A stretch of DNA of 64,000 nt. Origin: Bacillota bacterium. Lineage in GTDB: Bacteria > Bacillota > Clostridia > Acetivibrionales > DTU013. Position numbers and translations under genes: made by a program. The stretch lies in assembly GCA_023411715.1 (NCBI GenBank), contig JAEYOM010000004.1, forward strand, positions 20,351-84,350. Direction: 5' to 3'. Below the pieces are notes generated by a model that was given only the letters and a program-made list of their open reading frames with translations, did no database searches and was not told the DNA's origin. Positions 4,327 through 44,599 of this stretch are shown here, piece by piece (position 1 is the first letter of the stretch; each line of letters starts with the position of its first letter).

Positions 4327-4420
4327 CATATTCCCGGGTTTAAGATGTATAGCCGGGTTTAAAACGTATAGCTGGGTTTAATGTGTATAGCCGTGTCTAA
4401 GCCATATAGCCGGTTTCCCG
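4327..4420. repeat. 19-bp intergenic tandem repeat, about 5 degenerate copies
   Basis: gtatagccgggtttaaaac-like units starting at 4347, 4366, 4385 and 4404, plus a diverged first copy. Lies between convergent genes. Confidence 0.85.
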
Positions 4421-7821: not shown

Positions 7822-8012
7822 GACCTCCGCATATATATAGATGCGGTATATCTGGAAATGGTTGCATTAAGACAGGATTTTTTTAAATGATTGAATGCGC
7901 TGCTGATTCCGAGCAGCAAAATCCCTATTCAGCTGCTCGCGCTGCCATTGATTTCTTGCAGCAAAATCATTGTTCAGCTGCTTTCGCTGCTATTGATTCC
8001 GCTGCCAAAAAC

Positions 8013-10818: not shown

Positions 10819-12784
10819 TTATATTCCTAAATCATCAAGAATAGATGCGGCCTTTTCCTTTAGATCCAACTCTTTAATTAATTCCAACGCTTCTGTTTTA
10901 TTCGCTCCAGCATATACTAAAAAGCAAAAGTCTCTTTCCTCATGCTTAACCGCAAACGAAAAGGCATCAAAAACTTCATAATCGTTTTCCTTATAAAAAG
11001 TAATTCCGGGAGCTTCAGGCAGTTCCACCTCATGAGTATTATTGACACCAAATGACGTTTTCCCCGTATCGTAAATATGAATAGACATATTGCGTGAATC
11101 ATTACCGTAATCCAAATAAATTACGCCTGCTTTTTTTATGGAATAATCATACTTAAAGGGTATCCCTGTCTTGTAATTCATAAATTCCGGTTCGATTTCT
11201 GGCATACCGCTGCTAATGATTAATGGCATACCGCTGCTAGTATAGTACGAACCTACTGTATTTACCAAGGTTTTCAGGGAATTTTAAAGAAGGATAGTAT
11301 TTTTCTATTTCCTCCATACTGCTTAATGGCCGGCTCCCCCATACTATGCTACGTTCGCCGTCCATATCGAATATACATGCCTCATCATAATCGAGAGCTT
11401 GTCTGGTTTTTTCCGTAAGCTCCTGAAGCTTCTTGCGATATTCGGGAGATGCCTTATCTTGAACTGCTGCTTCAAATATTTTACCGTCAAGCATATCAAT
11501 AAATTCTGCCGTTACCCTGCTGAGCGTTTCGATCGCCTCTAAATTCAACGCATCTGCCGTATCTTGAACCGTATGAGTTATCGGAATTAAAGCTTCGCAG
11601 GAAAGGTCTATTGCCGCGATACCTTTATTTTGAAATATGATATGATCGCTTGCACCCTCATCTGAGAATGATATCTCGAATCCACCGGACGTAAGGTGTG
11701 AAGCGAAAGCGTCCGCCAGGCTTTTGGACGCCTCGTTAGTATTTAATGTATACTTTGTCGGATTATTTTTACTGCCTGCCATGTCGAAATTTATATTATA
11801 GAAATCTGTATATTTGCCTGTCAGCTCGGATATGGCTGCTTTACTGCCCTGCATCCCGCTCTCTTCGCCGTTGAACGCGTAAAAAACTATGTCTGTCGGC
11901 GGCTGACGGTTTCCATAATGCTTCTTCATGTCTTGAGCAAGCTTTATGAGTAATGCTGTTCAGGAAGCATTGTCGGCAGCTCCGCGGAAGACCGTATCGT
12001 CCCACCAGCCTATATGGTCGAAATGGGTGCTTAGTATGACGGCCTTTGAAGGGTCCTTTCCCTTTAGCACCCCCGCGACATTATTTACGGAGGATGAAAC
12101 CGTCGAATAGTCACAGTCGATTGATACCGATGCAACAGATTCTATTTCCGATAGAAGCCTTTTCATAAAATCAGCGCTCAAATTGAATGTTGGTACAATA
12201 CCTTGGTCCTCCTCAATTCTTGCGGATGCTTTCCCGCTAATAATGAACAAGGCGGCCGGTTCTGTTTCCCGTGCGTCTGAAATCTTACCGCTGTCAGGCT
12301 CAAGCAATATCGTACCGGAAATATTTTCAGCATTGTAATCTGTCGTAATACCGGCGTTTATTGTGAAATCCGATAAGCCGACCGTTGGGAAAAAATCGCG
12401 TCCGGGGTCAAGCTTACATAGCTCTCCATTTTTATACAGAACAGATATGTCGATTTTCTGCTTGTCCGGCATATAGGTCATCTGTGTATAGGGAATGCAG
12501 TAATTCTCTCCAAGAAGCGGTTCCAATCCGGCTGCGTGAAATTGTTCAGCAATGAACATTTCCGTTTTTTTGCTTCCCTCAGTTCCCGTCAATCGCCCCT
12601 TAGCCTCATCCGAGGTTAAAAATGCGACTACTTCTGCGGTGCCTGCCATGTTGTTCTGCTTGAATGAACAACCGGACAAAGCACATACTAAAATAACAAT
12701 AACGACTATCATTCGTTTCTTCATGGATATATACACTCCTTGGCTGTGATGCCTCAAGAGGCCCAAAACTTGAGGCATCCGCAT
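10819..12784 (-). pseudogene. M28-family lipoprotein aminopeptidase, disrupted by an in-frame TGA (11960-11962) and a probable frameshift near 11240-11270
   Basis: Three ORFs (11960..12784, 11237..11929, 10819..11268) form one gene. Lipobox LVCALSGCS. Minus-strand read-through gives ...HFDHIGWWDDTVFRGAADNAS-TGA-TALLIKLAQDMKKHYG...DIVFYAFNGEESGMQGS, so the stop replaces the conserved Gly of the M28 DNASG motif. The 11237 ORF and the 10819 ORF join as FPENL/VNTVGSYY with a 1-nt shift. Confidence 0.75.
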
Positions 12785-15315: not shown

Positions 15316-15428
15316 GCGTACCGGCGGCAGGCTGTGTCGCGAGTGTGCCATACCGGCGGCAGGCTGTGTCGCGAGTGCGCCGTACCGGCGGCAGGCTGTG
15401 TCGCGAGTGCGCCGTACCGGCGGCTTTT
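15316..15428. repeat. 32-bp GC-rich tandem repeat, 3.3 copies, starting 7 nt after the dinB stop
   Basis: The core ccggcggcaggctgtgtcgcgagtgcgccgta recurs with starts at 15321, 15353, 15385 and 15417 (last copy partial), then ttttt. Confidence 0.95.
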
Positions 15429-20868: not shown

Positions 20869-23800
20869 TTACACCTTTTCTACTGTAAACGTTACAGCTT
20901 CCCCGTTTATATTCCATTCCTTACTGTAGCCTTCGCCGCCCGAAGGCCTGAGCTCGTCTCCGAGGACTTCGTCGCTTATAACTGCCATGTTGCGCTCAAA
21001 TATGGCGTTGATCCTTTCATTGTCACCGTAATATACCCTGATATGGTCCTGCACCTCGAAGCCTGCTTCCTTCCTCATGGTCTGGAGCTTGCTTATGATC
21101 TCGCGGACAAACCCTTCCTCTATCAGTTCGGGAGTCAGGTTGGTATCGAGCACTACGGCAACATCCCTGTCGCTTTCGGATACGAAGCCTTCCTTCTGCG
21201 CTGTGTCGACAAGCACATCCGACAGTTCGAGGACAATTTCGGCGCCTTCAAGCTCAAAGCTTACGCTGCCGTCCTTGTTGAAACGTGACATGAATTCATT
21301 TCCGTCCACCCCGGAAAGGTATTCGCCGATCTTCGGCACAAGCTTGCCGTATTTCGGACCGAGCGTCCTCAGCTGCGGTTTGAATTTATACGTCGTAAAG
21401 CCCGACGCGTCGTCCGTGAATACTATCTGCTTGACGTTTAGTTCGTCGGCGACCAGTTCGCGATACATCTGCGGCAGTTCGCCCTCCGCCTTCACGTAAA
21501 TCTTTCCGATAGGCTGGCGGTTTTTGATATTCGCGGTATTTCTGCAGGCACGGCCCAGAACTACGTATTTAAGCACTTTATCCATATTTTCTTCAAGATC
21601 GGCGTCGATATATTCTTTCCTTACCACCGGGAAATCGCACAGATGAACGCTTTCAGGCGCATTAGCGTCAACGCTGCCGACGAGGTTCAGATATATCTCC
21701 TCTGTGATGAACGGGACGAACGGCGCAGCTGTCTTAGAAAGCTCGACAAGTACTGTGTAAAGCGTCATATATGCATTTATCTTGTCCTGGCACATCTCCT
21801 TCTGCCAGAAACGCTCCCTGCACCTTCTGACATACCAGTTGCTCAGTTCGTCTACGAATTCCTGTATATCCCTGCCGGACTCGGTTATCCTGTAATTTTC
21901 AAGGTTTTTATCCACGTTTCCGATCAGTGTGTAAAGCCTTGAAAGGATCCACTTATCCATTACGGATAGCTTATCTTTTTCCAGTTTATAATCGAGCGGG
22001 TTAAAACCGTCGATATTCGCATACAGCACATAGAAAGCATAGGTGTTCCACAAGGTGCCCATGAACTTCCTCTGGCTTTCGCTCACAGCTTCTTCATAGA
22101 ATCTGCTAGGCAGCCACGGTGCGCTGCCGGTATAGAAATACCAGCGGACGGCGTCCGAACCCTGCTTGTTGAGAACTGTCCACGGATCGACTACATTGCC
22201 CTTGTGCTTGCTCATTTTCTGACCGTCTTTGTCATTTACATGGCCAAGCACTATACAGTTTTTGAAGGCCGGCTCGTCGAACAACAGCGAAGAAATTGCC
22301 AGCAACGTGTAGAACCAGCCTCTTGTCTGGTCTATAGCCTCGCTTATGAAATCCGCCGGATAGCGTTTTTCAAAAATATCCTTGTTCTCGAAGGGATAGT
22401 GCCACTGTGCAAAAGGCATAGAACCCGAGTCGAACCAGCAGTCTATGACTTCGGATACCCTCTTCATATCGCCCGAGCATTTCGGACATCTGAGCTTCAA
22501 GTTGTCAATAAACGGCTTATGCAGTTCTATATCGTCGGGCACGTTTTCACCGAGCTCTTTAAGTTCGGCAATGCTTCCTACAAGATGCCTGTGTCCGCAT
22601 TTGCACTCCCAGATCGGCAGAGGCGTGCCCCAGTATCTTGAACGGCTGAGACCCCAATCCACGACATTCTCGAGGAAATTACCCATACGGCCTTCCTTTA
22701 TATTATCAGGCATCCAATTTATACTGTTGTTATTCTTCAACAACCTGTCACGGATCGCGGTCATTTTGATGAACCAGGTGTCGCGTGCGTAATAGAGCAG
22801 CGGCGTGTCGCATCTCCAGCAGAACGGATATGAATGCTCGTAAGCCAGCGTCTTGTATAAAAGGCCCCTTGAGTCGAGGTCCTTTATGATATCCGGATCG
22901 ACATCCTTTACGAACCTGCCCTTCCATGGTTTTACTTCCTCTATGAATTCGCCCTGCTCGTTAACCATCTGCACAAAAGGCAGGTCATTATCCTTTCCGA
23001 CTCTTGAGTCATCCTCACCGAACGCGGGCGCGATATGAACTATACCGGAGCCGTCGGACAGAGTGACATAATTGTCGCAGACTACGTACCAGGCTTTTTT
23101 ATCCGGCCTGGCGAAGTCGAATAACGGCTCATATTCCATACCGCGCAGTTCCGTTCCCCGATAGCTGCCGACAACGCTGTATTCGCTCTTCAAAACGGCC
23201 GGAGCAAGCGCTTCCGCCAGAATATATGTCTCATCGCCGCATTTTGCACGTACGTATGTTTCATCGGGATTTACGCACAATGCAACGTTGGAAGGCAATG
23301 TCCACGGAGTGGTCGTCCATGCCATCAGGTAAACTCCCTGTTCGCCTTTTACTTTGAACTTAACAAATACCGAGGTCTCAGTTACATCCTTGTAGCCCTG
23401 CGCGACTTCGTGGCTTGACAGCGAGGTGCCGCAGCGCGGACAGTACGGAACTATCTTGTGCCCCTTGTAAAGCAGCCCTTTGTCCCATATCTGCTTCAAT
23501 GCCCACCATTCAGATTCGATATAGGTATTGTTGTATGTGATATAGGGATCCTCCATATCGGCCCAGAAACCGACACGGTCGCTGATCTCCTCCCACTCGT
23601 GCTTGTATTTCCATACGCTTTCCTTGCACTTCTGGATAAAAGGCTCCACGCCGTATTCTTCGATCTGCGGCTTGCCGTTTATACCGAGCAGCTTCTCAAC
23701 TTCAAGCTCAACAGGCAGTCCGTGCGTATCCCAGCCTGCTTTTCTCAGGACATTATAGCCCTTCATCGTCTTGTAGCGCGGGATTATATCCTTCATTGCC

Positions 23801-23985
23801 CTGGTGAGGACATGGCCTATATGCGGTTTTCCGTTGGCTGTCGGCGGACCGTCGTAGAAGGTGAACGCGTCGCGGCCTTCCCTGAATTTAAGACTCTTTT
23901 CAAAAATTTTATTGTCTTTCCAGTACTTCAGCACTTCCTGCTCACGTTCAACAAATTTCAGATCTGTCGATACTTTTTTGTACAT
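20869..23985 (-). CDS. ileS: Isoleucine--tRNA ligase (type 2, long form)
   Basis: HIGH motif (PHIGH) and KMSKS motif (KMSKH). Start moved to MYKKVSTDLKF at 23985, behind AGGAGG. Confidence 0.95.
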   Translation of the reverse strand: MYKKVSTDLKFVEREQEVLKYWKDNKIFEKSLKFREGRDAFTFYDGPPTANGKPHIGHVLTRAMKDIIPRYKTMKGYNVLRKAGWDTHGLPVELEVEKLLGINGKPQIEEYGVEPFIQKCKESVWKYKHEWEEISDRVGFWADMEDPYITYNNTYIESEWWALKQIWDKGLLYKGHKIVPYCPRCGTSLSSHEVAQGYKDVTETSVFVKFKVKGEQGVYLMAWTTTPWTLPSNVALCVNPDETYVRAKCGDETYILAEALAPAVLKSEYSVVGSYRGTELRGMEYEPLFDFARPDKKAWYVVCDNYVTLSDGSGIVHIAPAFGEDDSRVGKDNDLPFVQMVNEQGEFIEEVKPWKGRFVKDVDPDIIKDLDSRGLLYKTLAYEHSYPFCWRCDTPLLYYARDTWFIKMTAIRDRLLKNNNSINWMPDNIKEGRMGNFLENVVDWGLSRSRYWGTPLPIWECKCGHRHLVGSIAELKELGENVPDDIELHKPFIDNLKLRCPKCSGDMKRVSEVIDCWFDSGSMPFAQWHYPFENKDIFEKRYPADFISEAIDQTRGWFYTLLAISSLLFDEPAFKNCIVLGHVNDKDGQKMSKHKGNVVDPWTVLNKQGSDAVRWYFYTGSAPWLPSRFYEEAVSESQRKFMGTLWNTYAFYVLYANIDGFNPLDYKLEKDKLSVMDKWILSRLYTLIGNVDKNLENYRITESGRDIQEFVDELSNWYVRRCRERFWQKEMCQDKINAYMTLYTVLVELSKTAAPFVPFITEEIYLNLVGSVDANAPESVHLCDFPVVRKEYIDADLEENMDKVLKYVVLGRACRNTANIKNRQPIGKIYVKAEGELPQMYRELVADELNVKQIVFTDDASGFTTYKFKPQLRTLGPKYGKLVPKIGEYLSGVDGNEFMSRFNKDGSVSFELEGAEIVLELSDVLVDTAQKEGFVSESDRDVAVVLDTNLTPELIEEGFVREIISKLQTMRKEAGFEVQDHIRVYYGDNERINAIFERNMAVISDEVLGDELRPSGGEGYSKEWNINGEAVTFTVEKV

Positions 23986-24104
23986 AACTTCCTCCTGTAT
24001 TATAGATCCCGGGTTATACGACCCGCCCAATAATTTTCCTGTTGCGCAAATCCATTACACCCTTGATAAATGAAACTAAAGAACCGTCCCTTTGTTTCAT
24101 GTAA

Positions 24105-24385
24105 ACTAAAAAACCCCTCGATCCCAGATAAAGGGACGAGAGGATATGACTCACGCGTTACCACCCAAATTACCGCTGTAATTACAGTCTTCGACTGTTA
24201 TTCACGGCAGTCTCTTGATCATACCTTTAACGGAGTGACCCGGCTTATCGTACTTGCGCTTTCACGCTTTCAGCAAGCGGCTCCCGGAGGATTTTCAGGA
24301 AACTCTTCCGCAGCCTCGCACCGGCCGGCTGCTCTCTGTTGGATTAGCGATCCTTACTCGTTCCGATCATAGCAATAAAATATTA
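24105..24385 (-). promoter_or_regulatory. T-box riboswitch leader of ileS
   Basis: The minus strand carries AACAGAGAGCAGCC (stem I AGAGA element), the T-box sequence AAUUUGGGUGGUAACGCGUGA (24151-24170), and the terminator CCUCUCGUCCCUUUAUCUGGGAUCGAGGGGUUUUUU. I could not assign the specifier codon with confidence. Confidence 0.85.
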
Positions 24386-32214: not shown

Positions 32215-32356
32215 AGCAAACCCTCCTCTTTATTTTAATTCCGTCGGCGGAGCCCAGGCGCTTATAATGGGCTGCATTTCATATAACATCTCAGTAGTCG
32301 CAACGCCGATGAACTGGACCCCCGGAGCCCTTCTCCCTGGCAGTGCTCGTCACCAC

Positions 32357-32480
32357 GGATGCATGGGCGAGCAGCAGGCTTTGCCTGCGACCAGCCCGGA
32401 TGCATGGGCGAGCAGCAGGCTTTGCCTGCGACCAGCCCGGTTGTATGGGCGAGCTGCAGGCTACTTTATTCCTGTAGTCT
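32357..32480. repeat. REP-A hairpin element, 3 tandem copies (41-nt period)
   Basis: ggatgcatgggcgagcagcaggctttgcctgcgaccagccc at 32357 and 32398 (identical). A diverged third copy from 32439 overlaps the stop of the 32466 ORF. Confidence 0.95.
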
Positions 32481-35484: not shown

Positions 35485-35601
35485 CTAAACATCCTATATG
35501 GATGTTTTAGCGGAAATCCGCGCCTTATGGCGCTAAACATCCTCTTTGAATGTTTTAGCGGAAATCCGCGCCTTAGGGCGCTAAACATCCTATATGGATG
35601 T
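35485..35601. repeat. 48-bp tandem repeat (2.4 copies) of alternating hairpins, overlapping the spoIVB stop
   Basis: ctaaacatcc starts at 35485, 35533 and 35581. Unit: ctaaacatcctatatggatgttttagcggaaatccgcgccttatggcg. Hairpins: aaacatcc/ggatgttt and gcgcc/ggcgc. Confidence 0.95.
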
Positions 35602-40159: not shown

Positions 40160-40969
40160 TTAGAGTTCCACGTGCGATTGCTTAACTGTATTGTCGATTT
40201 CAGGCAATATTTCCCCAATGTCCCTGGTTCCGGCTCCAAACGACAGGTAGCACAGATATTCTATGTTACCCTCAGGCCCTTTAATCGGCGAGTATGTTAT
40301 GCCTTTTACTCCAAAACCAACCCCTATGGCAAAAGATACGATCTCTTCCACGACCTGGCGATGGATTGCAATGTCCCTGACCACGCCATGCTTGCCCACC
40401 TTGTCCCTGCCTGCTTCAAACTGCGGCTTTATCAGACAGAGCACCTCTCCGGCAGCCTGATTCAATAGTTGTTTTACTGCCGGCAGGACTATTTTCAAAG
40501 AAATGAAAGAAACATCTATGGAGGCAAAATCGACAGCCATGCCGATATCCTCCGGTTTTACATAACGGATGTTGGTCCTTTCCAGATTCAGTACGCGTTC
40601 GTCGTTCCTGAGCTGCCAGGCCAGCTGTCCATAGCCTACATCTATTGCAACGACCTTTTCTGCCCCGTTCTGGAGCATGCAGTCGGTAAACCCGCCTGTG
40701 GAGGCCCCGACATCCATCGTTTTTTTGCCTTTGAGATCTATCCCGAAGAAATTGATAGCCTTGTCCAGTTTCAAGCCGCCCCTGCTTACGAAAGGGTTCG
40801 GATTCTTCCTGATCTCTATTTCGGAATCCGCATGATAAATGCTCCCCGGTTTGTCCGCGCGCTCGCCGTTTACATAGATCAAGCCGGCCATGATAGAGGT
40901 CTTCGCTCTCTCCCGGCTTTCGAACAAACCTTTTTGTACAAGCAGCACGTCAAGCCTTTCTTTTTCCAA
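40160..40969 (-). CDS. tlyA: TlyA-family rRNA 2'-O-methyltransferase (S4 + FtsJ domains)
   Basis: RLDVLLVQKGLFESRERAKTSIMAGLIYVNG...DVGASTGGFTDCMLQNGA...LIKPQFE. TTG start. Confidence 0.9.
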   Translation of the reverse strand: MEKERLDVLLVQKGLFESRERAKTSIMAGLIYVNGERADKPGSIYHADSEIEIRKNPNPFVSRGGLKLDKAINFFGIDLKGKKTMDVGASTGGFTDCMLQNGAEKVVAIDVGYGQLAWQLRNDERVLNLERTNIRYVKPEDIGMAVDFASIDVSFISLKIVLPAVKQLLNQAAGEVLCLIKPQFEAGRDKVGKHGVVRDIAIHRQVVEEIVSFAIGVGFGVKGITYSPIKGPEGNIEYLCYLSFGAGTRDIGEILPEIDNTVKQSHVEL

Positions 40970-41100
40970 GGTATTACCTCCAGATAGAACTTTTAGCTTT
41001 TAGCTTTTAACTCAAAATTTAACACTTGTGACTCTATACTCAATATTATCGCTTAACATTATTAAAATAATGATATTTACTATGACCTTTACGTACTAAT

Positions 41101-41334
41101 ACCTGCTGCGCCGGTTGATTAATATTGCATGAGTTTCGTGACCTGGAGCATATTGATGAGGCATTGCCCAAGGAAAATATCTGTTTGAGCGAAGCATTCA
41201 CATCTATGCTTCGCATTTTGTTTCATCTGTAACTATTTGCGGAGCAAATAGTATTGTTAAATTTTCCAACAGAGCCGAATCTATATGCTCCGGGAACGTA
41301 AACTCCGCAATAGGAATCAACCGGCGCAGCAGGT
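41101..41334. repeat. 234-bp long-hairpin (MITE-like or invertible) element: ~52-bp imperfect terminal inverted repeats around a 129-nt core
   Basis: Left arm 41101-41153 (acctgctgcgccggttgatt aatattgcatgagtttcgtgacctggagcatat). Right arm 41283-41334 is its reverse complement, with the outer 20 nt perfect and about 85 percent identity overall. The core holds two perfect hairpins: gcgaagcat/atgcttcgc (41188-41213) and ctatttgc/gcaaatag (41233-41251). Confidence 0.9.
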
Positions 41335-41386
41335 TATGACTGAGTTCATCTAGTGAGAGTCAAACCGGCGCAAGCAGGTTATGACT
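41319..41386. repeat. 23/24-nt direct repeat duplicating the 3' end of dxs
   Basis: aaccggcgcagcaggttatgact (41319-41341) and aaccggcgcaagcaggttatgact (41363-41386). The second copy contains the dxs stop codon (41379-41381). Confidence 0.9.
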
Positions 41387-43265
41387 TATTTTTTATCAGT
41401 TTTATTATGCTGCGGCTTATCGACTCGGCATCGAGCCCGTATTTTTCAAAAATCCTGTTCCGTGGTCCGTGCGTTATCGGAGCGTCAGGGAAACCGAATA
41501 TACCTGTTTTTACCCTGTAACCGTTCCTGTTCAGAAGCTCCAGCACGGCGCTCCCAAAGCCGCCCGTTATACAGTTGTCCTCGAGCGTTGCGACCGCATG
41601 CGTTTTTGCGGCGCTTTCCAGTATCAGCCTTGCGTCGAGCGGCTTTACAAACCTGGCGTCGATCACGTCGGCATGTATGCTTTTTTCTGTGAGCAATTCC
41701 GATACGCGCAGCGCTGTTTCCACCATTTTTCCGACTGCCAGTATAGTGACGTCTTCGCCGTTTTGCAGCTTCAGGCCTTTTCCACACTGTATAGGGGATA
41801 TCGGCACCATTCGTACTTTTCCGGTGCCTCTGGGGTAACGTATCGCTATCGGTCCGTCATGCGCTGTAACCGCATAATCCAGCATGCGCTCAAACTCGAG
41901 ATAATCGCTGGGAGCGGCAATCGTCATATTGGGTATGTGTTCGAGATACGACAGATCGTAAATACCCTGGTGCGTCTCTCCGTCTTCACCTATCAGGCCT
42001 GCCCTGTCAATGGCAAAAACGACATGCAGATCCTGAAGCGCGACATCGTGTATTATCTGATCATACGAACGCTGAAGAAAAGTTGAATAAATTGCCACCA
42101 CAGGCTTGATACCCGCTTTTGCAAGACCGGCGGCAAACGTTACCGCATGCTGCTCCGCAATACCCACGTCAAAGAAACGTTCCGGATATTTTTTTGCAAA
42201 TTCCTCAAGTCCCGTACCAAGGGGCATTGCAGCAGTTATTGCGACGAGTCTGGGCTCGTTGGCCGCAAGATTGACCATTTTTTCGCCAAATATATCGGAA
42301 TAGGACGGCCCGTTATTGATCTTAACCTCGCCGGTCTCAATTTCAAACGGATTTATGCCGTGAAATTGCTGTGGCTTGTTTTCAGCAAACTTGTATCCCT
42401 TGCCCTTTTGGGTCAATACATGTATCAAAACGGGGCCTTTAAGTTTCTTAGCCCTTGAAAGCACATTTGTAAGTTCTTCTACGTCATGTCCGTCGATCGG
42501 CCCCAGATATTTCAGACCCAGTTCTTCGAATAACATTCCGGGAATCAGCATGTATTTTATAGATCCCTTTGCCCTGTTCAATGCGCGTGCGGCGCTGTCG
42601 CCTATGGCAGGCAGCCTCTTCAGCAGGGAATCAAAATCTTCCTTCGCTTTGGAATAGATCGGCTGTGTCCTTATTTTACTCAGGTAACGTGAAAAGCCGC
42701 CTACATTCTTGCTTATGGACATGCCGTTATCGTTAAGGATGATTATCATGTTGTTGCGTGAACGCCCTGCGTCATTGAGCGCTTCGAATGCCATACCGCC
42801 CGTCATCGCACCGTCGCCCATGACTGCGACTACGGAATAATTAACTCCCAGAATATCGCGCGCCTTGGCAAATCCGAGCGCGGCGGATATGGATGTGCTG
42901 CTGTGACCCGTATTGAAGCAGTCGCTATCGCTTTCACAGCTTTTCGGAAACCCGGAGAGGCCATCAATCTGACGAAGCGTGTCAAACCGGTCCCTTCGGC
43001 CTGTTATTATCTTATGCACGTAGGATTGGTGACCGACGTCCCATACTATCTTATCCCTCGGGGTGCTGAATACCCTGTGCAGCGCCAGGGTAAGCTCGAC
43101 TACGCCAAGATTTGACGCCAGATGCCCTCCCGTTTCGGAAACCTTTTCTATCAGGAACTGCCTGATCTCATCGGCAAGTATCTTCATTTGTACTAAATTC
43201 AGCTTTTTAATATCGTCCGAATTATTTATCCGATAAAGTATGCTTTCTTCACTTTTTTCTATCAT
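41379..43265 (-). CDS. dxs: 1-deoxy-D-xylulose-5-phosphate synthase
   Basis: 628 aa. GHSSTSISAALG, TPP motif GDGAMTGGMAFEALN, transketolase-like C-terminus. Confidence 0.95.
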   Translation of the reverse strand: MIEKSEESILYRINNSDDIKKLNLVQMKILADEIRQFLIEKVSETGGHLASNLGVVELTLALHRVFSTPRDKIVWDVGHQSYVHKIITGRRDRFDTLRQIDGLSGFPKSCESDSDCFNTGHSSTSISAALGFAKARDILGVNYSVVAVMGDGAMTGGMAFEALNDAGRSRNNMIIILNDNGMSISKNVGGFSRYLSKIRTQPIYSKAKEDFDSLLKRLPAIGDSAARALNRAKGSIKYMLIPGMLFEELGLKYLGPIDGHDVEELTNVLSRAKKLKGPVLIHVLTQKGKGYKFAENKPQQFHGINPFEIETGEVKINNGPSYSDIFGEKMVNLAANEPRLVAITAAMPLGTGLEEFAKKYPERFFDVGIAEQHAVTFAAGLAKAGIKPVVAIYSTFLQRSYDQIIHDVALQDLHVVFAIDRAGLIGEDGETHQGIYDLSYLEHIPNMTIAAPSDYLEFERMLDYAVTAHDGPIAIRYPRGTGKVRMVPISPIQCGKGLKLQNGEDVTILAVGKMVETALRVSELLTEKSIHADVIDARFVKPLDARLILESAAKTHAVATLEDNCITGGFGSAVLELLNRNGYRVKTGIFGFPDAPITHGPRNRIFEKYGLDAESISRSIIKLIKNKS

Positions 43266-43890
43266 TTTTAGTTTTCCTTTTTTTTGTGAAAAACAATATT
43301 TTGTCCAAAACGAAGCTGATTACCACACTCACCTTATATATTATGTAATTGCTATTGCGCAGCGCAATCGTTTTTCCGAGGGCCTTTCCACCAACTGTCA
43401 TCGCAGTTATCAATCCCGTTATCACAAGCTCCGCGATAGTAATCGTTTCCTGTTCGCCGATGATTCTTATAATAATGTAGGCGCCCGCAGCGCCGCTTAT
43501 AATGCCGCATATATCGCCAACGACGTCGTTGCATACATTTGATACCTTATCAGCATTCCTTATAAGCCTTATAGACTGTTTCGCACCGTAAAGCTTCCGG
43601 GATGCCATGGCATGGAACGGAGCCTCCTCAGCCGCCGTAACAGCCGTCCCTATGGTATCGAACATGATATTTATCAAAATTATAAATAATATTACCAAAA
43701 AAGCTGTAAGTATATCCGATTCTTTCAGAATATTGGATGATGCGATATTAAGTATTGCAGATATAAAAAAGGACGAAAAGGTAACAGCCAGTATCCAGAT
43801 TATATCATTCTTTTTAGCAGCACCCACAGCGGTTTTTTCTCTGAACTTTACTTTCTTTTCTTCGGCGGGATGCTTGAAATTATCGTCCAC
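43249..43890 (-). CDS. oapA: Small 4-TM membrane protein, proposed OLE-associated protein OapA
   Basis: Start chosen at GTG 43890, 9 nt after GGAGG (the track ORF begins at TTG 43914). Four hydrophobic segments. DVVGD (DxxxD) motif. 17-nt overlap with the dxs start. Sits directly downstream of the large RNA. Confidence 0.65.
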   Translation of the reverse strand: MDDNFKHPAEEKKVKFREKTAVGAAKKNDIIWILAVTFSSFFISAILNIASSNILKESDILTAFLVILFIILINIMFDTIGTAVTAAEEAPFHAMASRKLYGAKQSIRLIRNADKVSNVCNDVVGDICGIISGAAGAYIIIRIIGEQETITIAELVITGLITAMTVGGKALGKTIALRNSNYIIYKVSVVISFVLDKILFFTKKRKTKNDRKK

Positions 43891-43956
43891 CGACTTAAAC
43901 CTCCATATCAGCAATAAAGGACGTATCCTGAATCAGGATGCATCCCAGATGATTAA

Positions 43957-44593
43957 GTAAAAACCAGGTGGCAATATATTGAGTAAATTTTGCGGCTTAG
44001 GTCAGGCAGGATTTCCCCCGGAAATACCGATTTGTCGCCAAACCGGCGGTTTCCCTTTAAATTTCCGGCCGCAGCGTTACCGCTGTCGGGGCCTGATTAC
44101 CACTTAGTCCACACTGCAATCCCCAATATATTTCATTTGGAACAGCCTAGGGGTTTTCCCCGGCAGTCTGTCCGTTTCCTAGCCTCTTTTGCAAATAGGG
44201 TTTCAAATAGCGATAATGCGCTCATACCGGCCAGTAATCCTGCATCTGATCCATTATCCACCGTATTCACTCAAGGCAGGCTACGCTGTCCACAGCATCA
44301 AATGATACCGCATAACAGGTTCAATCCCTGATCGTAGTTGATACCAAGCTTCAAAATCCCTTTTTGAATATTCAAAGCCTCTTTCTTCCACAAGTCAGGG
44401 TCTCCACGGTAAAGGGGTCAACGCCTGCATGCCATTGCAGATCGCCCCTGAACCTTAACTCCCAGCACCAGCCCACCACTGGGCGTAGCAAGCCGACACA
44501 AGGAACTTCATCGATATGCCCTTTAACGGATTTTTAGGCCCGTCCTGAGAAACGTCAGTACTGACTAGAATACTGCGCCACCTTGTTTTTTGA
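43957..44593 (-). ncRNA. ole: Large structured ncRNA, proposed OLE (ornate, large, extremophilic) RNA
   Basis: About 640 nt with no credible ORF inside a packed operon. Own promoter. 5' AAGGUGGC pairs with 3' GCCACCUGG, followed by a U-run. A GNRA-capped helix (ACAGCG-GUAA-CGCUGC) exists only on the minus strand. The context ispA-RNA-oapA-dxs-tlyA is diagnostic. No covariance-model search was possible here. Confidence 0.7.
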
Positions 44594-44599
44594 ATTCTT

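What the first reader, a model, noticed from the sequence alone, without database searches (positions are those of the whole stretch)
41101..41386. 234-bp long-hairpin element with ~52-bp inverted arms between dxs and tlyA, plus a duplicated copy of the dxs 3' end
In the usual dxs-tlyA arrangement these genes are close, but here they are 409 bp apart. The gap holds arms 41101-41153 and 41283-41334 that are reverse complements; the outer 20 nt CCTGCTGCGCCGGTTGATT are perfect and overall identity is about 85 percent. They enclose 129 nt with two perfect hairpins. The first (41188-41213) is followed by ATTTTGTTT on the + strand, which looks like an antisense-direction terminator. The right arm plus 8 flanking nt (aaccggcgcagcaggttatgact, 41319-41341) recurs 45 nt away as aaccggcgcaagcaggttatgact (41363-41386), where ttatgact is the stop and the last codons of dxs. 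So three copies of one ~20-nt core exist: two direct and one inverted. Competing readings are (a) a MITE-like insertion that copied its target, (b) a site-specific invertible segment (inverted cores flanking ~200 bp) with an att-like scar at the dxs end, or (c) a selected long-hairpin RNA processing or stability element inside the OLE operon transcript.
Basis: seen in the sequence. Interest (0 to 1): 0.65.

Follow-up and report, generated by a model that had tools for sequence, protein, structure and literature searches.

The report
Conserved long hairpin between dxs and tlyA
The dxs-tlyA gap holds a real 234-base hairpin from a small, unrecorded family of palindromic elements in uncultured Clostridia, kept base-paired by compensating mutations, and the supposed copy of the dxs end is one unit of a variable tandem repeat.

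Summary
Window 41101-41334 folds into one long hairpin (z about -12), with a third copy of its basal core 45 nt away.

Comparison with relatives changes the interpretation:
- The "duplicated dxs 3' end" is a 45-46-nt tandem unit. There are 2 copies here and 4 in a 99.9% identical strain. dxs ends inside the first unit, so dxs borrowed its last codon and stop from the repeat.
- The hairpin sits at the same site in five related lineages (172-234 nt). It is missing in two more distant ones. One of those keeps only a 16-nt mini-palindrome.
- One lineage carries the whole module inverted.
- A paralogous copy lies 3' of a nucleoside kinase gene in one metagenome. The window's own strain has no copy there.
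- 22 of 67 pairs show compensatory double changes. The inner helix is 89-96% identical where tlyA four-fold sites are 37-72% identical.
- There is no Rfam match, target-site duplication, nearby transposase or recombinase, or conserved promoter or terminator.

Best reading: a low-copy element of the MITE/bcr1/ERIC kind, inherited vertically under selection. It probably acts as a transcribed double-stranded RNA module between dxs and tlyA, but that function is inferred. Active inversion is not excluded and not shown.

The parts
41101..41334 (-). Long-hairpin element (234 nt). Family orientation A: its 5' arm lies on the dxs side when read on the minus strand.
   Evidence: Inverted repeats. Folds. 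Covariance model R1 scores 222 bits here. Homologous copies in L064, L065, L066, L083 and L074.
41315..41334 (-). Outer stem, 5' half (ACCTGCTGCGCCGGTTGATT). This is the quasi-palindromic core.
   Evidence: Perfect 20-nt inverted match. Its outermost ~15-16 nt covary freely between lineages, for example CGCCG/CGGCG in the window against TAACA/TGTTA in L083; the innermost GATT/AATC pairs are shared with the paralogous copy.
41101..41120 (-). Outer stem, 3' half (AATCAACCGGCGCAGCAGGT on the minus strand).
41274..41312 (-). Inner helix, 5' arm (TATTGCGGAGTTTACG..GGAGCATATAGATTCGGC). Its sequence hardly varies across the family.
   Evidence: Alignments. 30 of the 54 pairs of the long helix never vary. 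Inner-helix identity is 89-96% against 37-72% at tlyA four-fold sites.
41123..41163 (-). Inner helix, 3' arm (GCCTCATCAATATGCTCC..CACGAAACTCATGCAATA).
   Evidence: The exact-pattern scan that found the second locus was built on this arm.
41164..41273 (-). Apical domain. It holds a conserved upper helix (GGAAAAT/ATTTTCC, which covaries A-U with C-G) and conserved unpaired TTAAC and CTCAAACAG. It also holds an insertion of roughly 45-60 nt that only the window lineage has.
   Evidence: Alignment. Pair counts for helix 2.
41232..41252 (.). Apical hairpin 1 (9-bp stem in the RNA fold, 3-nt loop). Specific to the window lineage.
   Evidence: Absent in L064, L065, L066, L083 and L074.
41189..41224 (+). 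Apical hairpin 2 (9-bp stem, 8-nt loop) followed by ATTTTGTTTC. It resembles a terminator only on the + strand, antisense to dxs. Specific to the window lineage.
   Evidence: Terminator scan. Not found in L083, L064 or L065.
41342..41386 (-). Tandem unit 1 (45 nt): AGTCATAACCTGCTTGCGCCGGTTTGAC plus an 18-nt linker. It contains the last dxs codon and the stop.
   Evidence: Tandem Repeats Finder on L001 gives period 46, 3.5 copies, 91% matches.
41319..41341 (-). Start of tandem unit 2, which runs into the 5' arm of the hairpin.
41379..41381 (-). dxs stop codon TAA, lying inside tandem unit 1.
   Evidence: Relatives end KNK* and the window ends KNKS*.
41379..43265 (-). dxs (DXP synthase, 628 aa).
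   Evidence: Pfam DXP_synthase_N, Transket_pyr, Transketolase_C.
40160..40969 (-). tlyA (S4 plus FtsJ rRNA methyltransferase, 269 aa).

Best explanation
The 234-bp feature belongs to a small, previously unrecorded family of palindromic non-coding elements (172-234 nt) in one clade of uncultured, OLE-carrying, spore-forming Clostridia.

Shown:
- The element entered the dxs-tlyA spacer before the lineages with 87-91% TlyA amino-acid identity to the window separated. It has since been inherited vertically.
- Selection keeps the whole hairpin paired. The outermost ~15 bp of the stem may change as long as they change on both sides. The inner helix keeps its sequence as well as its pairing.
- The family was mobile at least once. 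A paralogous copy lies 3' of a nucleoside kinase gene in one lineage only.
- The DNA next to the hairpin is unstable. It shows a 45-46-nt tandem array of the basal core plus linker (2 to 4 copies). dxs is fused to the first unit. A methyltransferase gene comes and goes. One lineage carries a whole-module inversion and one has collapsed to a 16-nt mini-palindrome.

Inferred mechanism: the element is transcribed as part of the dxs-tlyA-nadK-argR-recN message and works as a long double-stranded RNA module. It could be an RNase III-type processing site, a barrier to 3' exonucleases, or both. Either would uncouple the fate of the dxs message from the downstream cistrons. The invariant inner helix would be a sequence-specific binding or cleavage site.
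For: - Real and non-random: z about -12 on both strands and as DNA. The 20-nt perfect inverted repeat is expected 0.01 times by chance.
- Orthologous copies sit at the same site in L064, L066 and L083 in the same orientation, and in L065 inverted.
- Empty sites: L068 has a 51-nt spacer with the single palindrome ACCTGCTGCGCAGGTT. L072 has a 28-nt spacer with no core.
- Second locus: L074, found by an exact-pattern scan of JGI metagenomes.
- No copy at that second locus in the window's own strain (L080, L081), in L078/L079, or in L082.
- Covariation: 96.5% of cells are paired and 22 of 67 pairs have changes on both sides. 0 of 500 shuffles reach this, and slid controls give 1-4 such pairs. RNAalifold on an unfitted MAFFT alignment already gave 11 compensated pairs.
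- Constraint: paired columns are 81-92% identical and the inner helix 89-96%. tlyA four-fold sites are 37-72% identical.
- Vertical descent: element divergence tracks host divergence (r = 0.83 over 10 non-independent pairs).
- Tandem array variation and the dxs fusion.
- The general kind is known. MITEs fold into long RNA stem-loops, and bcr1 keeps its structure through compensatory changes (PMC3184786). Correia elements are bound or cut by RNase III (abstract of PMC2649163).
Against: - No expression, cleavage or stability data exist. The RNA role is inference.
- In L065 the operon transcript would carry the complement of the element, so any RNA role must tolerate either strand.
- The strand antisense to dxs folds 2-17 kcal/mol more stably in all seven copies. 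That does not favour the operon-sense RNA.
- No target-site duplication and no partner transposase were found, so mobility rests on only two loci.
- Only six distinct sequences are available, and the pair counts come from an alignment fitted to the model.
- Copy number in a whole genome is unknown. The collection of GTDB species-representative genomes gave no hit, and only about 222-270 kb of DNA from this clade could be searched.
Confidence: 0.5

Rival explanations
1. A purely selfish MITE with no host function. Its apparent conservation would reflect recent spread or repeated insertion at a preferred site.
For: - Inverted terminal arms, no ORF, size near 200 bp, and folding into a long stem-loop.
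- A second, unrelated locus where presence varies between lineages.
- Empty sites at dxs-tlyA in L068 and L072.
- Different junction positions and orientations between lineages.
Against: - No target-site duplication at any junction.
- Low copy number: one copy in the 64-kb window and none in about 160 kb of other DNA from the clade.
- No related sequence in plasmids, phages or viral contigs.
- No transposase among 30 window ORFs tested.
- Divergence between copies tracks host divergence (r = 0.83). The inner helix is far more conserved than synonymous sites.
- Compensatory changes accumulated at the orthologous site, which takes time under constraint.
Confidence: 0.15
2. A site-specific recombination module. 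The quasi-palindromic 15-17-nt cores (ACCTGC-N3-GCAGGT type) would be sites for an unlinked recombinase. Recombination between inverted cores would flip the segment, and between direct cores would add or remove 45-nt units. In the window lineage, flipping would bring the one-direction terminator into the operon-sense strand and shut off tlyA-nadK-argR-recN read-through.
For: - L065 carries the unit plus the element inverted, while the outermost distal core and its flank (GCAGCAGGT ATTGGTA) are unchanged. One inversion between the outermost cores would produce exactly this.
- Those cores are only about 15 nt long. That is short for ordinary homologous recombination (inference).
- Unit number differs between 99.9% identical strains.
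- The terminator-like hairpin works in one direction only.
- Assemblies break at this site.
Against: - The inversion is seen between lineages, not within one. The window, L001 and L063 all show the same orientation.
- No recombinase among 30 window ORFs tested.
- The terminator-like hairpin and any promoter are absent in the other lineages.
- The segment is almost fully self-complementary, so flipping changes little.
- The second-locus copy has a different outer stem and lacks this core.
- Tandem repeats elsewhere in the window also vary between the same two strains. Ordinary slippage is therefore enough to explain the unit numbers.
- Assembly breaks are expected at any repeat.
Confidence: 0.12
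3. A single-stranded DNA hairpin recognised during replication or by an HUH-type or other hairpin-binding enzyme, as with REPIN/RAYT elements or integron attC sites. The covariation would then reflect DNA pairing rather than RNA pairing.
For: - The element folds equally well as DNA (z = -12.8).
- Covariation does not tell DNA from RNA.
- Orientation relative to transcription is not fixed.
- G.U and A.C cells show no clear strand bias.
- The flanks rearrange often, as expected near long palindromes.
Against: - No RAYT, IS200 or integrase gene in the window.
- Copy number is very low compared with REP/REPIN populations.
- There are no R-box-like GTTRRRY ends (read directly from the sequence).
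- One G.U pair is conserved in 5 of 6 copies. In DNA it would be a G.T mismatch.
Confidence: 0.08
4. A small antisense RNA gene on the + strand. It would start at the promoter-like site at 41019-41047 and end at the terminator-like hairpin at 41189-41224, and would act on the dxs-tlyA message.
For: - Promoter-like and terminator-like sites lie on the + strand.
- The + strand (antisense to dxs) folds more stably in all copies.
Against: - Neither signal is conserved in L083, L064 or L065.
- Promoter-like matches are no more frequent than in shuffles (3 found against 1.5 expected).
- Such an RNA would carry only one arm, so it would not explain selection for pairing of both arms.
Confidence: 0.07
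5. Neutral spacer with a chance palindrome.
For: None beyond the absence of any database annotation.
Against: Folding z about -12. Conservation above synonymous sites. Covariation. A paralogous copy.
Confidence: 0.02

Closest known systems
bcr1 and related group A repeats of the Bacillus cereus group (MITE-like, about 155 bp)
   Same: A Firmicute intergenic non-coding repeat of similar size. Its presence varies between related strains. Base-pair compensatory changes maintain an RNA-level structure (PMC3184786).
   Different: bcr1 has many copies, is flanked by 5-bp direct repeats, and folds into a cruciform-like form with two stem-loops. The element here is low copy, shows no direct-repeat flanks, and forms one long hairpin. 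It has been kept at the same operon site through speciation, with an almost invariant inner helix.
Correia repeat enclosed elements (CREE/NEMIS) of Neisseria
   Same: A short element with inverted repeats that folds into a long hairpin when co-transcribed. It can be bound or cleaved by RNase III and so alter expression of adjacent genes (abstract of PMC2649163). This is the functional model proposed here.
   Different: CREE are present in roughly a hundred or more copies, duplicate a TA target, and carry an IHF site and promoter-generating ends (own knowledge plus that abstract). None of these features was found here, and no conserved promoter was found.
ERIC/IRU elements of enterobacteria
   Same: Imperfect palindromes of about 127 bp in transcribed intergenic regions. 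They are thought to act as RNA hairpins affecting mRNA stability (own knowledge).
   Different: ERIC elements are widespread and multi-copy. They share no sequence with this element, and no Rfam family matches it.
REPINs (REP doublets forming hairpins) with RAYT transposases
   Same: Two inverted copies of a short GC-rich palindromic core form a long hairpin. The elements are vertically persistent and sit next to the 3' ends of genes (PMC3116915, listed).
   Different: REPINs form populations of tens to hundreds of copies and need a RAYT gene. Here there are one or two copies and no RAYT was found in the window.
Invertible switches such as cwpV and flgB of Clostridioides difficile
   Same: A segment of about 150-200 bp bounded by inverted repeats, lying between or upstream of genes. 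In cwpV, orientation decides whether a terminator forms (own knowledge). The window's apex carries a one-direction terminator-like hairpin, and a relative has the opposite orientation.
   Different: In those switches the invertible DNA is not itself a hairpin, and both orientations coexist in one population. Here neither coexisting orientations nor a recombinase was shown, and the terminator is not conserved.
Intergenic minisatellites (VNTRs) such as mycobacterial MIRUs
   Same: This comparison concerns the 45-46-nt units. They are tandem intergenic repeats inside an operon, they overlap the stop codon of the upstream gene, and their copy number differs between very close strains (MIRU properties from own knowledge).
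   Different: There is no sequence relation. Here the unit is built from the basal stem of an adjacent hairpin element.

Membership tests
MITE (as defined in PMC3184786) | Terminal inverted repeats around a short core with no transposase gene, usually under 200-400 bp | tested here: met
   20-nt perfect and about 60-nt imperfect inverted arms. Length 172-234 nt. No open frame is conserved across copies.
MITE (as defined in PMC3184786) | Flanking target-site duplication (direct repeats) | tested here: not met
   No direct repeat at the junctions in L083, L064 or L074. The 23-nt direct repeat in the window is a tandem unit with 2-4 copies.
MITE (as defined in PMC3184786) | Multiple dispersed copies, with presence varying between related genomes | tested here: inconclusive
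   Two loci (dxs-tlyA and the nucleoside kinase 3' end) with presence and absence at both. Only one copy in the 64-kb window and none in about 160 kb more. No whole genome could be searched.
MITE (as defined in PMC3184786) | A parent insertion sequence with matching ends | tested here: not met
   No match in plasmids, phages or viral contigs. The scan for the terminal repeat across 185,579 species-representative genomes gave only single chance hits in unrelated taxa.
Structured RNA family already in Rfam | A match to any Rfam 15 covariance model | tested here: not met
   No match up to E = 10 in 40900-41500. The only window hits are OLE and a T-box.
Conserved structured RNA or hairpin (general criterion) | Base pairs kept through compensatory changes, well above controls | tested here: met
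   22 of 67 pairs changed on both sides and 96.5% of cells are paired. 0 of 500 shuffles reach this, and slid controls give 1-4 pairs. The alignment was fitted to the model. An unfitted alignment gave 11 such pairs.
Invertible DNA switch (inverton) | Both orientations present within one population or strain | not testable with these tools
   No reads are available. Three assemblies of the window's species share one orientation. The opposite orientation occurs only in a different lineage with 89% TlyA identity.
Invertible DNA switch (inverton) | An asymmetric functional cargo (promoter or terminator) conserved inside the segment | tested here: not met
   The terminator-like hairpin occurs only in the window lineage. 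No conserved promoter or terminator in L083, L064 or L065.
Invertible DNA switch (inverton) | A cognate invertase | tested here: inconclusive
   None among 30 window ORFs scanned with Pfam or in the neighbourhood gene tables. Invertases can be encoded elsewhere in the genome.
REP/REPIN-RAYT | Tens to hundreds of copies per genome and a RAYT gene | tested here: not met
   One or two copies seen. No Y1 transposase in the window. A whole-genome count was not possible.
Intrinsic terminator (for the long hairpin itself) | A GC-rich stem followed directly by a U tract on the transcribed strand | tested here: not met
   Downstream of the hairpin on the operon strand come ATTAGTACG (window), ATATGATAAC (L064) and ACAGTTTTATTT (L083). 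The scan reports no terminator.
CRISPR array (for the tandem units) | Identical repeats separated by unrelated spacers of about 30 nt, usually with cas genes | tested here: not met
   The linkers are only 17-19 nt and resemble each other (ATCACACTGGATGAACTCA, TCTCACTAGATGAACTCA, ATCGCACTGGATGAACTCA). No cas genes appear in the neighbourhood tables.

The most novel reading that the evidence does not exclude
The quasi-palindromic cores at the base of the hairpin are recombination sites. The locus would then be a small shufflon-like module inside a housekeeping operon. Recombination between cores in inverted orientation would flip the hairpin and its apical cargo, which in the window lineage is a one-direction terminator. 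Recombination between direct cores would expand or contract the 45-nt array. This single mechanism would account for the inversion in L065, the 2 versus 4 units in near-identical strains, and the solo mini-palindrome in L068. It would give phase-variable control of tlyA-nadK-argR-recN read-through downstream of the OLE RNA genes.
Probability: 0.1. Interest if true: 0.7.

Novelty: new member of a known kind. Interest (0 to 1): 0.4.

Why it matters
- If the RNA reading is right, this is a new, strongly covarying structured element of about 170-235 nt, absent from Rfam. It sits in the operon that also carries the OLE RNA and its partner gene oapA.
- It would be a clear case of a palindromic mobile element retained under purifying selection (apparently domesticated). 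Its inner helix is conserved about as strongly as first codon positions, which points to a specific protein or nuclease partner.
- It also shows concretely how a long palindrome reshapes its surroundings. The changes include a new stop codon for an essential gene (dxs), a variable tandem array, an inversion, and gain and loss of a neighbouring gene.
- Practically, the site breaks short-read assemblies, so tandem-unit number and orientation in metagenome-assembled genomes should not be trusted there.

Tried and rejected
- Rfam, at the gathering threshold on the whole window and at E up to 10 on 40900-41500: nothing at the element.
- Exact scan of the GTDB species-representative genomes for the terminal repeat: 60 single hits, all in unrelated and mostly high-GC taxa. 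None was in a Firmicute and none had two arms.
- Viral contigs (two patterns), plasmids and phages: no match.
- nhmmer and covariance-model searches of about 222-270 kb from this clade, including the whole window: no further copies.
- Target-site duplication: looked for at every junction and not found.
- Integration (att) scar reading: rejected. The repeats are 45 nt apart, their number varies, and the outer cores are in inverted rather than direct orientation.
- Insertion into a pre-existing hairpin: considered because L068 keeps a mini-palindrome. The empty second locus (L078/L079) has no such palindrome, so the outer stem travels with the element. L068 is better read as a collapsed remnant (inference).
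- Small ORF or stop-codon read-through peptide (IPIAEFTFPEHIDSAL): rejected. The frame relative to dxs differs between lineages, stops interrupt it, and L065 is inverted.
- CRISPR-like mini-array: rejected (see the membership test).
- Conserved promoter or terminator inside the element: none.
- Recombinase or transposase in the window: none among 30 ORFs.
- Integron attC reading: rejected. The ends do not fit RYYYAAC/GTTRRRY, and the methyltransferase gene is not bounded by a second hairpin.
- Literature searches for this element, or for dxs-tlyA hairpins in OLE operons: nothing found.
- The last large protein search was not spent on spurious ORFs of the element, because gene callers never called a gene there.
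Full report
**Context.** All relevant genes lie on the minus strand. dxs is 41379-43265 and tlyA is 40160-40969. They belong to the gene order xseA-xseB-ispA-OLE-oapA-dxs-tlyA-nadK-argR-recN. OLE RNA is at 43952-44597 with 532 bits. The dxs protein of the window occurs, identical, only on metagenome contigs (ENA, Logan), so the organism is an uncultured spore-forming member of the Clostridia.

**Checking the observation.** The feature is as described.
- The arms are 41101-41128 with 41307-41334 (93%) and 41131-41162 with 41274-41305 (72%).
- The outer 20 nt are a perfect inverted repeat. About 0.01 matches are expected by chance.
- The 311-nt region folds with z = -11.7 on the minus strand and -12.0 on the plus strand. 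As DNA the element gives z = -12.8.
- The apex carries two perfect hairpins, at 41232-41252 and 41189-41214. The second is followed by ATTTTGTTTC on the + strand only.
- The direct repeat 41319-41341 / 41363-41386 and its overlap with the dxs stop (41379-41381) are real.
- Rfam has nothing here, even at E = 10.

**The "copy of the dxs end" is a tandem array of variable length.**
- A contig from a 99.9% identical strain (L001) has the same spacer with four tandem units of 45-46 nt where the window has two. The rest of the spacer is identical.
- Each unit is a small extended palindrome (GTCATAACCTGCT(T)GCGCCGGTTTGAC) plus a 17-19-nt linker. The last unit runs into the 5' arm of the hairpin.
- Relatives end dxs with ...KNK*, but the window ends with ...KNKS*. 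Its last codon and stop lie inside the first unit. So the repeat supplied the end of dxs, not the reverse.
- A second tandem repeat in the window (32356-32462) also differs in copy number between the same two strains.
- Two other assemblies break or leave a gap exactly at this site. Unit numbers may therefore partly reflect assembly.

**The hairpin in relatives.** I looked up the genomic places of TlyA homologues.
- L064 (91% TlyA identity): the element follows the dxs stop, in the same orientation.
- L066 (88%): the same orientation, preceded by a degenerate extra core.
- L083 (88%): a minimal 172-nt version directly after the stop, 20 nt before the tlyA ribosome-binding site.
- L065 (89%): the element is in the opposite orientation. 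It is 82% identical to L064 on the opposite strand and 65% on the same strand. The extra core and linker lie on the tlyA side.
- The L065 arrangement is what one inversion between the outermost proximal and distal cores of a window-like arrangement would give. The distal core and its flank (GCAGCAGGT ATTGGTA) are unchanged.
- L068 (86%): a 51-nt spacer holding only the perfect palindrome ACCTGCTGCGCAGGTT.
- L072 (79%): a 28-nt spacer with no trace of the core.
- A class I SAM methyltransferase gene lies between the element and tlyA in L064, L066 and L075. It is absent from the window, L065 and L083.

**A second locus.**
- An exact-pattern scan of JGI metagenomes with a conserved arm motif found two contigs, both from one sample. 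One is the L064 locus. The other is L074, where a related element lies 24 nt after the stop of a 554-aa nucleoside kinase gene.
- The inner arms of L074 match the family. Its outer stem has a different sequence (CTGGTGTCACTGATTGCT / AGCAATCAGTGACGCCAG) but is still complementary.
- The orthologous site has no element in the window's own strain (L080, L081). A different insert of about 190 nt sits there instead.
- L078/L079 have only a short spacer there, and L082 has a DUF6688 gene.
- So the family has moved at least once. The empty site carries no pre-existing palindrome, so the outer stem belongs to the element.

**Copy number and relatives elsewhere.**
- nhmmer and a covariance model found no further copy in the window or in about 160 kb of other DNA from this clade.
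- Nothing related was found in plasmids, phages or viral contigs.
- The scan of species-representative genomes for the terminal repeat returned only chance hits.
- No junction shows a target-site duplication.
- Thirty window ORFs scanned with Pfam are ordinary chromosomal genes, with no transposase or recombinase.

**Selection on pairing and on sequence.**
- On six distinct copies aligned to the model, 96.5% of cells form standard pairs and 22 of 67 pairs show changes on both sides. None of 500 shuffles reaches this, and sliding the partners gives 1-4 such pairs.
- An unfitted MAFFT alignment already gave 11 compensated pairs.
- Clear examples at the orthologous site:
  - CGCCG/CGGCG (window) against TAACA/TGTTA (L083).
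  - TGC/GCA against TTC/GAA (L066).
  - The upper helix GGAAAAT/ATTTTCC against GGCAAAT/ATTTGCC.
- Paired columns are 81-92% identical between lineages whose tlyA four-fold sites are 37-72% identical. The inner helix is 89-96% identical and the outer stem 63-100%.
- Element divergence follows host divergence (r = 0.83 over ten non-independent pairs).
- This pattern fits vertical inheritance under purifying selection. The outer stem is selected for pairing only. The inner helix is selected for both pairing and sequence.

**What it most likely is and does.**
- Shown: the anatomy is that of the known class of short palindromic intergenic elements. MITEs are described as folding into long RNA stem-loops, and bcr1 of the Bacillus cereus group keeps its structure by compensatory changes (PMC3184786).
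- Shown: this family differs from that class in four ways. It is low copy, it lacks target duplications, it has stayed at one operon site through speciation, and its inner helix is almost invariant.
- Inferred: I read it as a retained (apparently domesticated) element that is transcribed within the dxs-tlyA message and acts as a long double-stranded RNA module. It would serve as an RNase III-type processing site, a 3'-exonuclease barrier, or both. Correia elements provide the precedent for such a role (abstract of PMC2649163).
- No promoter or terminator is conserved within the element. The long hairpin is not followed by a U tract on the operon strand.
- The window's apical insertion, with its + strand terminator-like hairpin, is specific to this lineage.

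**What does not fit neatly.**
- The inverted copy in L065 means any RNA role must work from either strand.
- In all seven copies the strand antisense to dxs folds 2-17 kcal/mol more stably.
- Yet one G.U pair conserved in five of six copies lies on the sense strand.
- Covariation cannot separate RNA hairpins from single-stranded DNA hairpins.
- The inversion breakpoints fall in cores of about 15 nt, which is short for ordinary homologous recombination (inference).
- The core indel pattern of the two tandem-array alleles cannot be produced by simple unit deletion.
- These points keep a recombination-site reading alive at low probability. It needs read-level data, which these tools cannot supply.

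**Verdict.** The finding is real and more interesting than a neutral spacer. It is a new, narrowly distributed member of a known kind of element. The evidence for structural selection is good and the function is unproven.

Noticed in passing
window 35485-35601: A 48-nt tandem repeat (2.4 copies). Its unit includes the last 21 nt and the stop codon (35590-35592) of the spoIVB-like peptidase S55 gene, so this is a second case in the window of a gene's 3' end repeated in tandem. The units form hairpins (CTAAAACATCC..GGATGTTTAG).
   Followed up: partly
window 32356-32462 (L001 20896-21043): A 41-nt intergenic tandem repeat with 2.6 copies in the window and one unit fewer in the 99.9% identical strain L001. 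The unit contains the palindrome GCAGGC-AAA-GCCTGC and the string CCTGCTGC, which the hairpin core also contains.
   Followed up: partly
window 15317-15424, 7913-7998, 4334-4413: Three more tandem repeats start within 8-20 nt of a stop codon. They are a 32-nt repeat (3.4 copies) after a DinB/IMS polymerase gene, a 45-nt repeat (1.9 copies) after an ABC-2 permease gene, and a 19/38-nt repeat after an AlkZ-like glycosylase gene. Tandem repeats at gene 3' ends seem to be a habit of this genome.
   Followed up: no
L064 2105-2863; L066 803-1543; L075 2-583: A class I SAM-dependent methyltransferase gene (246-252 aa) lies between the hairpin and tlyA in three lineages. It is absent from the window, L065 and L083. 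L075 (gene present) and L065 (gene absent) are each other's closest relatives at tlyA four-fold sites (0.79).
   Followed up: partly
L080 about 11666-11870 (window's own strain); L082 11753-12877: The spacer after the nucleoside kinase gene is a hot spot. It holds the hairpin element in L074, an unrelated insert of about 190 nt with a terminator-like hairpin in the window's strain, a DUF6688 gene in L082, and almost nothing in L078/L079.
   Followed up: partly
L063 2578-2676; L002 end (2648): One scaffold has a run of N across the dxs 3' end, the tandem units and the 5' arm. A Logan contig stops inside the first unit. Short-read assemblies fail at this site.
   Followed up: yes
window 43952-44597 and 43249-43914; window 24129-24379: A full-length OLE RNA (532 bits) with the adjacent oapA-like gene (weak CNNM match) lies two genes upstream of the hairpin. 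A T-box leader (123 bits) lies upstream of the 1053-aa ORF at 20869-24030.
   Followed up: no
window 40970-41100: The AT-rich 130 nt between the hairpin and tlyA are shared with L064 and L066, where they follow the methyltransferase gene. They are absent in L065, L068, L075 and L083, whose tlyA follows within 20-50 nt. This region may be a lineage-specific tlyA promoter, and it contains a TAAAAGC x3 repeat.
   Followed up: no
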